From a virus (taxonomy: Duplodnaviria; Heunggongvirae; Uroviricota; Caudoviricetes): a stretch of DNA of 9,170 nt. The position numbers were made by a program. Below are positions 6,001-9,000 of this stretch, one piece after another. The stretch lies in the IMG/VR virus record IMGVR_UViG_2724679236_000012; one strand, 5' to 3'. Each line of letters begins with the position of its first letter. Position 1 is the stretch's first letter.

Positions 6001-9000
6001 TGCTTCAGGATAATTCTCAATATAAAATTCATAACCACAAGGAAATAATATTATTTGATTATTATCAACAGTTAAAGTATGCGTTTCCCAATTGATAACT
6101 TTCTTTCCCTGACGGATACGACACAAAGCTGGCATAAGAGGCTTAACCCTATGAATCTCATGATGTTTATGCATCCGTATTTCTTCGATCTTTAAGTTAG
6201 TCTTACCTCTTGCCAGCATACTCTCACCCTACTTTATCTCATAAACTGGTGTTATCTCAGCGGTTGCGATTTTATTAGCATTAAGCATATAACCAACTAA
6301 CGCTCCGCTGGAGTTAGAATCTACAGGAATCTTTTCAGTTTTTAGAGCCCATACTTTAAACTGGTAATGATGTGGTTTATCTCCTTTAGGAGGACATGCG
6401 CCACCAAACCCAGCATAGCCAAAATCATTTCGGCCTTGAACAGCACCAGTCGGCAATTTTGTTCCATCACGTCTCCCTGCATCAACGGGCAAATATGTTA
6501 TTGTTGCTGGAATATTAACAACAGTCCAATGCCACCAACCACTGCCTGTAGGTGCATCTGGATCATATACAGTTACGGCAAAGCTTTTGGTACCTTCAGG
6601 AACACCAGACCAGGTTAATGAGGGCGATGTATTACCACCTTCACACCCAAATCCAGAAAAGACATGAGACGTTGTAAGTTGCTCTCCTGTTTTTATTTCA
6701 TTACTAGTGACCTGAAATGCTGCAGCCTGCGCAGAAAATGTTATGAATGCCAATACAGTTGAAACGATAAGTGTTTTCATAAAAACCTCTTTGTTATGAC
6801 CTGTCGTTATTTTATTTGATATTCCTTTATCTCATTATGCATAAAGGCGCAATGTTTATGCAAAAGCAATCACAATTGTACCCCCAACCCAATTATTTGC
6901 CACAATATACACAAAGCACATTGATACTATCTAAAAACTCTGCTTTATTATTAGTAATACCTACGAAAGTCGGTGTTATTTTTTAACCTACCATTCAAAA
7001 TACGTGACATACACCATTTTGCTCATAATAATTTGTCACGTATTTTCAGTATTTGAATCTGCGACCAAGAGTTCTCACCTAACAAATGATTAAGATTGTA
7101 TAGCTCATTTACTACCCCAATACAGCCGTACAAAACTCGCTTGTGGGAGCAAACAAAGTAATTACCCATTAAGTTTCGTCAAAGATAATTAATTCTGTCT
7201 TGCACTTTATCACCATAGCATAACTTAAAATCCGAGATCATTATTTAGAAATAAATCTCACCATCAACCATATATTTGAGAGCACTTATCGCCTGCTGGG
7301 CGGATATTACTTTCATTAAAGGATAGTGTTTAAAAACAATGCCATTCATAAAATAGATATCACAGGTTTTATTATCCGTATTAATTATGATTTTTTCGAA
7401 TGTTTTATAGGCAAGTGTACGGCATAACTCTCGTCCATTTTTACTGGTTAAGTCAATAGCATAAAAATCACTGAATGAATTTACACCTTTACTCTTCAAA
7501 GTTTTCAATGATACCGAAGCCCTTCGTAATTCCTTATCTAATAGTCTTATTTTCTCTGCTATAGCGGTAACTTCAGGCGCGACAGACAATGCAACGATTA
7601 AATTATTAATTTTCATCTGAAGCTCAATAATTTTTAACTCTAAAGTTTCATTAGCATCTTTCTTGTTTTCAACTGGTTGAATTTTGCTACAATTAAAAAG
7701 CAATTCATTAATGATATTATAATCAACCAAATCTCTTTTTATTGATGGCCTGTCACATCGATGTAATCTTCTCATCGGACAAACATAATAGCCATGCAAA
7801 CTTCCAGATACCGCATGAACAATCATGGTATTACCACAAGCCTCACACTTCATAACTGTTCGAAGTAGATTTATTAGCATAGGATTCTTGCTACTATTGC
7901 TAATACCAAAAGGTGCCAACCGAATTTCCTGTACAGTGTAAAACAAATCATCTGATATGACTCTGGGATAATAGCCAGCGATTTCACTTATCCCTTTCCC
8001 TCTTGCACGATATGAAGGTACGCATATACCTATCAGAGCTTTATTCGCTAATAATTTTTCAATTACAGAAGGTCCCCATGCACTTTCTTTTCCTGAGAAA
8101 TTCTTTACAGCATGATCATTTAAATACTTGGCTATTGCATTCAATGAGCGCCTTTCCATCCTGAGTTTAAAAATTAGCTCAATAGTTTTCACCCTGTCGG
8201 GGTCTGGAACAAAAGCCGTTCTTTTGTCATCTAAGGAGAGCCATCTCGGACAAGACGCCGTCATAATCGTACCTGATTCCAGTGCATCCTGCCGTTTTTT
8301 CTTCCATGATAATTTAACCCGACTTGACTTTATCTCGCTTTCTTCATTTGCCCTTTGTGCTATAAGTATGGCTTTTATTAATGAATATGGCTCATTCAAA
8401 GAGTCAATATTATAGACTGTATTGTCGCAAAGAGTTATAACATCAATACCGTGATTCAAAATCAATTTCAGCCGTTCAATCGCTTCACCGACTTTTTCTC
8501 TTGAAAGTCTGTCCAGACTTTCAACTAACAATGTAGTTCCTGGCAATATATAACCATGCTCTATAGCATCTAAAAATTCCGAAAAAGCTCCTGATTGTGC
8601 ATGCTTTCCTTTGAATGCACTTAATCCTAAATCTTCATATGTTATGGTATCAAGATAATAATCACTATTTACCTTTAACCATTCAGCAATAAGTCTTCTC
8701 TGTCGGTTTAATGAGTCACCAGACATCTGACCTGGTGATGAAAATCGCATATATGCTATGGCTTTTTTCATGGTGACACCTGCTAACGTATGCTTTTATA
8801 AACCTTAGTGGTGGGATATAATTTTTGTTTAATTTTTATTTAAAAAGACAATTAAGGTCACATTATCTTGAATATACAACAATAATCGTATTGCAATTTT
8901 CTTACGCCATAATCTTGAAAGCACAAAAGAATACATAAAAAATAAAGACATTAACAAAAAGCATAAAACGAGGCTCATATAAATATAAGAGCCTCCATAT

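What the first reader, a model, noticed from the sequence alone, without database searches (positions are those of the whole stretch)
6781..8771. Large serine recombinase located inside the prophage body
A 508-aa serine recombinase with a zinc-ribbon-like C-terminus lies next to early/nin-region genes rather than at a prophage end, and it neighbours the perfect inverted repeat at 6997..7046. It could be a secondary integrase from a mosaic or tandem prophage, or a resolvase/invertase controlling a local DNA switch.
Basis: inference. Interest (0 to 1): 0.4.

Follow-up and report, generated by a model that had tools for sequence, protein, structure and literature searches.

The report
Known orphan serine integrase gene ybcK
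The gene is ybcK, an already annotated, intact and evolutionarily conserved large serine recombinase that rides as accessory cargo in the middle of many E. coli lambda-like prophages; nothing suggests it flips or cuts out the DNA next to it, and its real target sites are still unknown.

Summary
Window 7245-8771 (- strand) encodes a 508-aa large serine recombinase with a catalytic domain, recombinase domain, zinc ribbon, coiled coil and a small C-terminal domain. It is E. coli ybcK, present in 1436 of 5426 complete genomes and in viable lambdoid phages. It always follows emrE, in the variable cargo slot between ren and ninB/ybcN. These phages have their own tyrosine integrase and excisionase; the closest genome's prophage sits at icd. 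The catalytic residues are invariant across the family and dN/dS is 0.05-0.2, so the protein is maintained, not decaying. Relatives 50-60% identical sit in the nin region of other lambdoid prophages, or directly after the tail-fibre genes, in two cases beside host genes. The 13-bp perfect inverted repeat is also real (about 1% by chance). It lies in a separate mosaic segment found only in the DLP12-type arrangement. Its arms are 24 nt apart, it has no other copy in the prophage, and it never varies in 30 loci. No inversion was seen in 80 loci. Best reading: an accessory serine integrase acquired by mosaic exchange and silenced by Rho in lysogens, with unidentified att sites. The local DNA switch idea is not supported. 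Already known; low interest.

The parts
7245..8771 (-). ybcK, a 508-aa large serine recombinase of serine-integrase type
   Evidence: ORF. Pfam Resolvase+Recombinase+Zn_ribbon_recom. A family profile hits SPbeta SprA at E=9e-19. Foldseek matches SprA, PhiC31 and Bxb1 integrases over the full length. R9, S11, D87, R88 and R91 are invariant and Cys309/312/331/339 are >=90% conserved. dN/dS is 0.05-0.2.
8772..9025 (-). ybcK 5' untranslated region, including the small ORF ylcJ (8829-8978). In K-12 it is reported to carry a Rho-dependent terminator that keeps ybcK silent.
   Evidence: ylcJ is annotated in RefSeq genomes. Rho/NusG-dependent termination upstream of ybcK is described in PMC4150792. 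The 8940-9020 stretch is the least conserved part of the module.
9026..9089 (-). 3' end of emrE (SMR efflux pump), truncated in this window. emrE is the invariable upstream partner of ybcK.
   Evidence: Alignment to intact loci. emrE lies upstream in 78 of 78 IMG/VR loci that have upstream sequence.
9080..9170 (.). End of an IS481-family insertion sequence that interrupts emrE in this genome. It is not part of the ybcK module.
   Evidence: Homology to all emrE-ybcK loci stops at 9089. Window 9080-9170 matches IS481-family transposase elements at 92-96% identity, in up to 38 places per genome and also on plasmids.
7204..7244 (-). Short 3' flank that travels with ybcK in all five arrangements. 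Homology between arrangements ends here.
   Evidence: Pairwise blastn and junction alignments. Conservation falls off directly after the stop codon.
6936..7203 (.). Linker found only in the DLP12-type arrangement. It holds the inverted repeat and an unsupported 48-aa ORF (7023-7169).
   Evidence: Absent from the four other ybcK arrangements and from the ybcK-less emrE-ybcL-ybcM island. The ORF has no family match.
6997..7046 (.). Perfect 13-bp inverted repeat with a 24-nt spacer. It is a hairpin-forming element between ybcK and the ybcL promoter region, possibly a terminator-like or operator element. It is not a pair of recombination sites.
   Evidence: RNA fold -18.9 kcal/mol, z=-2.66. No further copy in the window or the 49-kb locus. 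Identical in 30 of 30 loci.
5391..6935 (-). ybcM (AraC-type regulator, 5422-6219) and ybcL (PEBP/RKIP-like periplasmic protein, 6229-6780) with their upstream region. This is an independent cargo cassette next to ybcK.
   Evidence: Pfam. The cassette occurs in 3258 genomes, and 2584 of these are a ~92% allele covering window 5401-6880 only. In the one such locus examined (EcN-type), ybcK and the repeat are absent.
5329..5390 (.). Conserved right-hand edge of the cargo slot: a G+C-rich hairpin (CACCGGAG...CTCCGGTG) followed by TTGAT-N8-ATCAA, just upstream of ybcN/ninB.
   Evidence: Homology among seven different cargo variants ends sharply at window 5390. The sequence is duplicated in phage PhiR26_1.

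Best explanation
ybcK encodes a working large serine recombinase of the serine-integrase type. It is carried as accessory cargo, not as the phage's own integration module. It sits in the ren-ninB accessory slot of a lineage of E. coli lambdoid phages and their defective descendants such as DLP12. It entered that lineage long ago, linked to emrE, through the recombination that makes these phages mosaic. Biochemically it should act like SprA, PhiC31 or Bxb1 integrase. Dimers would bind two different ~40-50-bp att sites through the recombinase and zinc-ribbon domains. The coiled coils would control synapsis. Ser11 would make the double-strand breaks, and the strands would be exchanged by subunit rotation. 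In a lysogen the gene is kept silent by Rho-dependent termination in its leader. Because it points the same way as the early rightward operon, it should be made when antiterminated transcription passes through after infection or induction. Its att sites are not next to it and are unknown. The most likely job is a second, alternative integration or excision reaction for the phage. Shown: gene identity, architecture, conserved catalytic residues, purifying selection, position and context. Reported by others: Rho silencing. Inferred: the timing of expression and the recombination reaction. The target sites are unknown.
For: Architecture and fold match serine integrases. The catalytic Arg/Ser/Asp/Arg/Arg set is invariant in 24 relatives down to 29% identity and the four zinc-ribbon Cys are conserved in at least 90% of them. 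The 508-codon frame is intact and dN/dS is 0.05-0.2 at dS up to 0.17 among E. coli alleles. The gene occurs in 1436 of 5426 complete genomes and in viable phages (Perceval, 4A7, Turner, PhiR34_1). The two phage genomes and the closest prophage examined also carry a tyrosine integrase, with an excisionase annotated in two of the three. The ren-ninB interval holds unrelated cargo in sister phages: PD-lambda-1 plus Rha, a lipoprotein plus an acyltransferase, or many small ORFs. Relatives 50-60% identical lie directly after tail-fibre genes, beside host genes in Atlantibacter (540 bp from ssrA) and Erwinia (next to lepA), and also in Yersinia and Ewingella. This placement is compatible with an integrase position. 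Others lie in the nin region of Atlantibacter-like lambdoids. Rho/NusG-dependent termination upstream of ybcK is reported in PMC4150792.
Against: No att site was found. The module is uninterrupted in all 80 IMG/VR loci and in all 40 sampled genome hits except one emrE-only fragment. No prophage therefore appears to have integrated through a site inside window 7236-9089. No non-coding block next to the gene stands out as conserved. Relatives about 75% identical in DNA share nothing beyond about 68 nt upstream and the stop codon. The family keeps turning up in classic cargo slots (nin region, after the tail fibres, plasmid accessory regions). It has no conserved partner gene. That pattern is unusual for an integrase. 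No recombination activity of YbcK has been published in the literature searched.
Confidence: 0.5

Rival explanations
1. YbcK has an accessory role that is not integration of its own phage. For example, it might act on the DNA of competing phages, satellites or plasmids, or on a host site, as part of the conflict-related cargo that fills this hotspot.
For: Both recurrent positions of the family in lambdoid prophages are cargo slots. Neighbours or slot-mates include PD-lambda-1, a SIR2-domain protein and a 687-aa protein. Selection on the protein is strong although no cis site is conserved nearby. The family has no fixed partner gene.
Against: There is no match to any PADLOC defence model. No precedent was found for a large serine recombinase acting as a defence effector. 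The ybcK-less emrE-ybcL-ybcM-porin arrangement examined (EcN locus; its ~92% allele class numbers 2584 genomes) shows that the host keeps the neighbours but not ybcK.
Confidence: 0.17
2. ybcK is, or was, the recombinase of a small mobile unit of about 2.1 kb that inserts just downstream of emrE. It would be comparable to the TnpX/TndX serine-recombinase transposons.
For: Two presence/absence polymorphisms share the same right-hand boundary, in the AAATTATTTT(T)AATG stretch at the emrE stop codon. In the first, window 6936-9018 (2083 bp) is missing in the EcN-type island. In the second, 2073 bp lying between 38-nt direct repeats (84% identical) in phage Perceval is missing in two genomes, which have a clean hybrid site.
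Against: The left ends differ between arrangements: a truncated rha gene in Perceval and an unrelated linker in the DLP12 type. There is therefore no conserved element terminus. ybcK is never found away from emrE. The 38-nt repeats are what an unequal crossover between two emrE-bearing phages would leave. The empty form is what recombination between those repeats would leave. ybcK alleles have diverged along with the phage backbone.
Confidence: 0.12
3. ybcK is a functionless relic of another phage's integrase that merely hitch-hikes with emrE.
For: No att site was found. The gene is silent in K-12. It is absent from the domesticated island. A 478-aa variant with an in-frame 30-aa deletion in the recombinase domain exists.
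Against: dN/dS is 0.05-0.2 with up to 51 synonymous against 11-16 non-synonymous changes. The frame is intact in all loci examined. The catalytic residues are invariant across genera, and the gene is retained in viable phages.
Confidence: 0.12
4. YbcK is an invertase or resolvase that operates a local DNA switch using the 13-bp inverted repeat at 6997-7046.
For: The repeat is adjacent to the gene and unlikely by chance. Small serine invertases in other cryptic prophages do invert nearby segments (PMC12529663).
Against: The repeat lies in a mosaic segment absent from four of the five ybcK arrangements. The arms are 24 nt apart, far too close to be two crossover sites, and the inner halves have no symmetry (reading). 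No other copy exists in 49 kb. The repeat and spacer are identical in 30 of 30 loci, and no inverted flank was seen in 80 loci. The protein is of the integrase type, not a Hin/Gin/Pin-type invertase.
Confidence: 0.03

Closest known systems
Phage serine integrases (SPbeta SprA, PhiC31 Int, Bxb1 Int, Listeria A118/LI Int)
   Same: The domain order is the same: catalytic domain, long helix E, recombinase domain, zinc ribbon with embedded coiled coil. Foldseek matches run over the full length. A family profile matches the SprA sequence over the recombinase domain to the C-terminal region and PhiC31 integrase over part of the catalytic domain. The catalytic Ser and Arg/Asp set is conserved.
   Different: Sequence identity is only about 14-19%. 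YbcK is not next to the prophage attachment site and is not the phage's integrase. No attP/attB pair and no directionality factor are known for it.
TnpX / TndX large serine recombinases of Tn4451 / Tn5397
   Same: These are large serine recombinases that move small cargo-bearing units and leave imperfectly similar flanks (from general knowledge of the family). The ybcK segment shows presence/absence with short flanking repeats in one lineage.
   Different: The ybcK unit has no conserved termini, no second location and no circular form observed. Similarity to these proteins was not tested directly.
Small serine invertases of cryptic prophages (PinE, PinQ, PinR; Gin, Cin, Hin)
   Same: They have the same catalytic domain family (Pfam Resolvase; PHROG 125 'DNA invertase' matches residues 1-258 at E=2e-21). 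They also reside in defective E. coli prophages.
   Different: YbcK has the large C-terminal DNA-binding region of integrases instead of a small helix-turn-helix domain. It has no invertible segment and no flanking inverted crossover sites.
Morons and accessory cargo of lambdoid phages (nin-region and late-region hotspots)
   Same: ybcK occupies a slot with sharply conserved edges (the 3' end of ren, and a hairpin upstream of ninB). In that slot sister phages carry unrelated genes, including the defence system PD-lambda-1. The G+C content is low, 31-39% against about 50% in the backbone.
   Different: The cargo is a site-specific recombinase rather than a host-benefit or defence gene. Hosts that kept the neighbouring cargo lost ybcK.

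Membership tests
Large serine recombinases (serine integrases) | N-terminal resolvase-type catalytic domain with the nucleophilic serine and the conserved Arg/Asp/Arg/Arg set | tested here: met
   Pfam PF00239 at E=5.5e-19. R9, S11, Q15, D87, R88, R91, R140 and E144 are invariant in 24 family members.
Large serine recombinases (serine integrases) | Recombinase domain following a long helix E | tested here: met
   Pfam PF07508 at E=1e-13. The model has helix 128-166 followed by a helical domain 178-285.
Large serine recombinases (serine integrases) | Zinc-ribbon domain with four Cys and an embedded coiled-coil motif | tested here: met
   Pfam PF13408 at E=8e-8. C309, C312, C331 and C339 are at least 90% conserved. 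The model has antiparallel helices 369-397 and 402-427. The family profile aligns through this region of SprA.
Large serine recombinases (serine integrases) | A cognate attP/attB pair (or attL/attR flanking the element), usually close to the gene | tested here: not met
   The flanks carry no conserved non-coding block. No prophage is split next to ybcK in 80 loci. Relatives share no flanking DNA. Sites elsewhere cannot be excluded.
Large serine recombinases (serine integrases) | Catalysis of unidirectional site-specific recombination, with a directionality factor for the reverse reaction | not testable with these tools
   This requires biochemical or genetic assays. No report was found in the literature searched.
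The prophage's own integration module | Located at a prophage end next to the attachment site and needed for integration or excision of that prophage | tested here: not met
   The prophage ends at icd with a tyrosine integrase and excisionase. ybcK is about 10 kb inside. The same holds in phage Perceval, and PhiR34_1 likewise has a tyrosine integrase at its map end.
Serine DNA invertases (Hin/Gin/Pin type) | Small protein (~190 aa) with a C-terminal helix-turn-helix domain. It acts on inverted crossover sites that flank an invertible segment. | tested here: not met
   The protein is 508 aa with integrase-type C-terminal domains. The only inverted repeat has arms 24 nt apart, and no orientation variants occur.
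fdxN-element excision recombinase XisF (NCBIfam NF041201) | Score above the equivalog cut-off of 375 bits | tested here: not met
   47.5 bits against a cut-off of 375. This is only general family resemblance.
Known anti-phage defence proteins (PADLOC) | Match to a defence-system model | tested here: not met
   No hit for YbcK, YbcL, YbcM, the two small ORFs or three further cargo genes of the window at E<=0.01.

The most novel reading that the evidence does not exclude
The YbcK family would be a stand-alone serine recombinase that lambdoid phages and enterobacterial plasmids carry as selected cargo in accessory-gene hotspots, with no att site of its own beside it. It would act in trans on other DNA. 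For example, it might capture or destroy competing mobile elements, or give the phage a second attachment site when the first is occupied. It would not be an ordinary phage integrase.
Probability: 0.15. Interest if true: 0.6.

Novelty: already known. Interest (0 to 1): 0.2.

Why it matters
As it stands the finding is ordinary. ybcK is a long-annotated gene of the K-12 DLP12 prophage and of sequenced coliphages, where it is labelled as a recombinase or large serine recombinase. What remains open is why a phage with a complete tyrosine Int/Xis system keeps a second, silent, strongly conserved serine integrase in its early region. If its sites were found, it would add a native E. coli serine integrase to the genome-engineering toolbox. 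It might also explain how these phages lysogenise hosts whose primary site is occupied. That question is modest and testable, not a surprise.

Tried and rejected
- **Repeat as a recombination site pair.** Rejected because of arm spacing, lack of other copies, absence from most ybcK arrangements, and zero variation.
- **Repeat as a single att-like site of ~50 bp.** The outer 13 bp are symmetric, but the inner 12+12 nt match at only 3 of 12 positions (reading). The segment also does not travel with ybcK. Rejected.
- **Search for an att site beside ybcK by conservation.** No non-coding block is more conserved than the coding sequence, and conservation collapses right after the stop codon.
- **Flanking repeats around the module.** PhiR34_1 has none. 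Perceval has a 38-nt direct repeat. I followed this to two 'empty' genomes. I concluded that recombination between emrE-bearing phages explains it better than transposition, because the left termini differ.
- **229-bp duplication of a DUF1367 gene start around the homolog in L017.** It is absent from the closely related L027, so it is unrelated to the recombinase.
- **Ren C-terminal replacement as an integration scar.** Every cargo type, with or without ybcK, changes the Ren C-terminus at the same point. It is a general slot boundary.
- **Database screens.** A direct PDB sequence search gave nothing; a family profile was needed. PADLOC, Rfam, and NCBIfam (for the two small ORFs) gave nothing useful.
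- **Literature.** Searches for YbcK recombination activity found only expression, Rho termination and a sabinene-tolerance phenotype.
- **Sole-integrase test in relatives.** I could not determine whether the relatives lying directly after tail-fibre genes (Atlantibacter, Yersinia, Erwinia, Ewingella) are the only integrase of their prophages. Only 8-10 kb on each side of the gene could be fetched.
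Full report
**What is there**

The window is part of a lambdoid prophage of E. coli. Reading right to left on the - strand, it holds:
- the truncated 3' end of emrE;
- the small ORF ylcJ;
- a 508-aa ORF at 7245-8771;
- ybcL (PEBP family);
- ybcM (AraC family);
- ybcN (NinB-like), then a stretch matching the ninE gene of related loci, then ybcO and rusA;
- a Q antiterminator;
- three cargo genes;
- the start of the lysis cassette.

The 508-aa protein has Pfam Resolvase, Recombinase and Zn_ribbon_recom domains, all above threshold. It matches PHROG 95 'integrase' at E=1e-119. RefSeq annotates it as 'ybcK: recombinase family protein', and phage Perceval annotates it as 'Large serine recombinase'.

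The closest genome is 99.1% identical over window 1-9089. There the prophage is bounded by icd and a partial icd copy. A tyrosine integrase and excisionase lie about 10 kb from ybcK. The reported inverted repeat is also correct: arms 6997-7009 and 7034-7046, 13/13 complementary, 24-nt spacer. About 1% of simulated windows contain such a repeat.

**The protein is a complete and maintained serine integrase-type enzyme**

- A profile of 24 family members matches SPbeta SprA from the recombinase domain to the C-terminal region (E=9e-19), and matches PhiC31 integrase more weakly over part of the catalytic domain.
- An AlphaFold model (pLDDT 82) shows the catalytic domain, a long helix E, the recombinase domain, a zinc ribbon, a two-helix coiled coil and a small C-terminal domain.
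- Foldseek returns SprA, PhiC31 and Bxb1 integrases over the full length.
- R9, S11, Q15, D87, R88 and R91 are invariant, and the four zinc-ribbon cysteines are at least 90% conserved, in relatives down to 29% identity.
- Among six E. coli alleles the 1527-nt frame is always intact. dN/dS is 0.05-0.2 at dS up to 0.17. The gene is under purifying selection and is not a decaying relic.

**Where it sits and how it got there**

ybcK occurs in 1436 of 5426 complete E. coli genomes. It also occurs in viable phages (Perceval, 4A7, D2, Turner, PhiR34_1 and others). The two phage genomes examined in detail both carry a tyrosine integrase at the usual map position, and Perceval also has an annotated excisionase.

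The interval between ren and ybcN/ninB is a variable cargo slot. Sister phages carry the following there:
- PD-lambda-1 plus Rha;
- a lipoprotein plus an acyltransferase;
- many small ORFs.

The slot has sharp conserved edges. On one side, homology among cargo types ends inside the last codons of ren, and each cargo type gives Ren a different C-terminus. On the other side it ends at window 5390, right after a G+C-rich hairpin and a TTGAT-N8-ATCAA motif upstream of ybcN.

Within the slot, emrE-ylcJ-ybcK forms one module whose homology ends at window ~7204, 41 nt past the ybcK stop. What follows differs between arrangements:
- ybcL-ybcM, as in this window and in DLP12;
- an alpha/beta hydrolase;
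- a truncated rha gene plus one of two hypothetical genes;
- almost nothing, as in O157:H7.

The rha remnants form a nested series. This points to one old junction followed by deletions and replacements, not to repeated site-specific capture.

In 80 IMG/VR loci, emrE is upstream in 78 of the 78 that have upstream sequence. The downstream sequence falls into just these five classes, and no flank is inverted.

**The inverted repeat does not belong to ybcK**

It lies in a 268-bp linker (6936-7203) that exists only in the DLP12-type arrangement.
- The ybcL-ybcM cassette occurs in 3258 genomes. Of these, 2584 are a ~92%-identical allele whose match covers window 5401-6880 only.
- In the one such locus examined (EcN), this is the island fliE | emrE-ybcL-ybcM-porin | yedK. 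It lacks both ybcK and the repeat, and window 6936-9018 is missing.
- The 13-mer has no other copy with at most 1 mismatch in the 49-kb prophage locus.
- The repeat and its spacer are identical in 30 of 30 loci.
- Arms 24 nt apart cannot be two crossover sites. As a single ~50-bp site, the inner halves show no symmetry.

As RNA on the ybcK strand it folds into a hairpin flanked by an A-run and a U-run (-18.9 kcal/mol, z=-2.66). A terminator-like or operator role between ybcK and the ybcL promoter is the simplest guess, but this is not established.

**Relatives elsewhere**

Proteins 40-61% identical occur across Enterobacterales. Their contexts fall into three groups.
- The nin region of Atlantibacter-like lambdoid prophages, next to a SIR2-domain or a 687-aa protein.
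- The position directly after the tail-fibre and tail-assembly genes. In Atlantibacter the homolog is 540 bp from the ssrA 3' end and in Erwinia it is next to lepA. In Yersinia it lies between an autotransporter and a P2-like prophage. In Ewingella the shared phage sequence ends 404 nt past the gene, next to host genes in one strain and next to another element's tyrosine integrase in the other.
- Solitary genes among accessory genes on Pantoea, Duffyella and Citrobacter plasmids.

No neighbouring gene family is conserved. The position at prophage ends is compatible with an ancestral integrase role. The recurrence in cargo slots is unusual for an integrase. I could not fetch the far ends of those prophages to settle this.

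**Presence/absence of the ybcK segment**

Besides the EcN-type island, phage Perceval has 38-nt direct repeats (84% identical) on both sides of ybcK plus the rha remnant. One copy is the emrE stop-codon region. Two genomes carry the exact 'empty' arrangement ren-emrE-hydrolase with a hybrid site. Both polymorphisms share the right boundary at AAATTATTTT(T)AATG.

This could be read as an excisable unit. Three points count against that reading:
- the left termini differ (a truncated rha gene versus an unrelated linker);
- ybcK is never found away from emrE;
- unequal crossover between emrE-bearing phages, followed by recombination between the resulting repeats, explains the pattern without invoking YbcK.

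**Expression**

In K-12 the untranslated region upstream of ybcK acts as a Rho/NusG-dependent terminator. ybcK mRNA rises in certain rho and nusG mutants (PMC4150792). ybcK points the same way as the early rightward operon and lies upstream of the hairpin before ninB. I therefore infer that it is expressed when antiterminated transcription runs through after induction or infection. Overexpression was reported to raise sabinene tolerance, with no mechanism given (PMC7181518). I found no report of recombination activity.

**Verdict**

- The gene is a bona fide, selected, integrase-type large serine recombinase carried as accessory cargo. It is not this prophage's integration module and not a local invertase.
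- Its att sites and biological role are unknown.
- Most likely (about 0.5) it provides an alternative integration or excision reaction for the phage.
- Less likely readings are a trans-acting accessory role (0.17), a former mini-element (0.12), a relic (0.12) or a local switch (0.03).
- The feature is already known and annotated, so interest is low.

Noticed in passing
window 9080-9170: Homology to every other emrE-ybcK locus stops at 9089. The last ~90 bases match the end of an IS481-family insertion sequence (92-96% identity, up to 38 places in some genomes and also on plasmids). emrE is therefore interrupted in this genome, leaving only its last 21 codons in the window.
   Followed up: partly
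window 421-1165 (- strand): The AraC-type cargo gene between Q and the holin is split into 197-aa and 55-aa ORFs. Relative to the closest genome, where it is one 243-aa gene, the window lacks 2 nt at position ~1033 and has an extra base at 445. It is probably a frameshifted pseudogene.
   Followed up: partly
window 421-3184: The slot between the Q antiterminator and the holin holds a lipocalin (Blc-like), a YbgA-family protein (2-thiouracil desulfurase + DUF1722) and an AraC-type regulator. K-12 DLP12 and several phages carry the nmpC/ompD porin there. This is a second cargo hotspot with swapped content.
   Followed up: no
window 5329-5390: A G+C-rich hairpin (CACCGGAG-N8-CTCCGGTG) is followed by TTGAT-N8-ATCAA, with conserved arms and a variable spacer. 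It marks the exact point where seven different cargo variants regain homology upstream of ybcN. About 170 bp including it is duplicated in phage PhiR26_1, on both sides of the Rha cassette. It may be a tR2-like terminator and a recombination 'linker' for cargo exchange.
   Followed up: partly
L025 (E. coli Nissle-type chromosome), 4438-7881: One locus examined (EcN) carries fliE | emrE-ybcL-ybcM-porin | yedK, a stripped-down prophage remnant. It has kept the cargo genes but has lost ybcK, the nin genes and part of Q. 2584 genomes carry the ~92% ybcL-ybcM allele this locus represents. It suggests host retention of emrE, ybcL, ybcM and the porin, but not of ybcK.
   Followed up: partly
window 8940-9020 (ylcJ region): The stretch covering the start of the annotated small protein YlcJ is the least conserved part of the whole emrE-ybcK module (55-70% invariant columns against 90-100% elsewhere). 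It is frameshifted in some genomes, which argues against a conserved coding function.
   Followed up: no
proteins P0002 and P0003 (E. coli): A 478-aa YbcK variant has an in-frame 30-residue deletion (DDKRTAFVPDPDRVKTIELIFKLRMERRSL) at the start of the recombinase domain. It is recorded on 11 contigs for one of the two clusters and is likely an inactive allele.
   Followed up: no
L001 (phage Perceval) 9047-9084 and 11120-11157; L106 4448-4485: 38-nt direct repeats (a copy of the emrE stop region) flank ybcK plus a truncated rha remnant. Two E. coli genomes have the precise ybcK-less hybrid arrangement ren-emrE-hydrolase.
   Followed up: yes
L017 7623-7851 and 10609-10831: A 229-bp direct repeat (82.5% identical) covers the start of a DUF1367 nin-region gene. 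It flanks the YbcK homolog together with KGG and DinI genes in one metagenomic lambdoid contig. The close relative L027 has a single copy.
   Followed up: partly
L002 about 14590-14625 (ren-emrE spacer, just outside the window): A perfect 10-bp inverted repeat (GTTCAAACTG ... CAGTTTGAAC, 15-nt spacer) lies between ren and emrE, at the left edge of the emrE-ybcK module. Its function is unknown.
   Followed up: no
ren 3' end in L002, L006, L007, L010-L012: Each cargo type in the ren-ninB slot gives the Ren protein a different C-terminal tail after ...AAMKRVL (RVYKRTSMGTQ with emrE-ybcK, AVYGDMNLNLL with PD-lambda-1, AFYRGNFQ with the lipoprotein cassette). The slot boundary therefore lies inside the gene.
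   Followed up: partly
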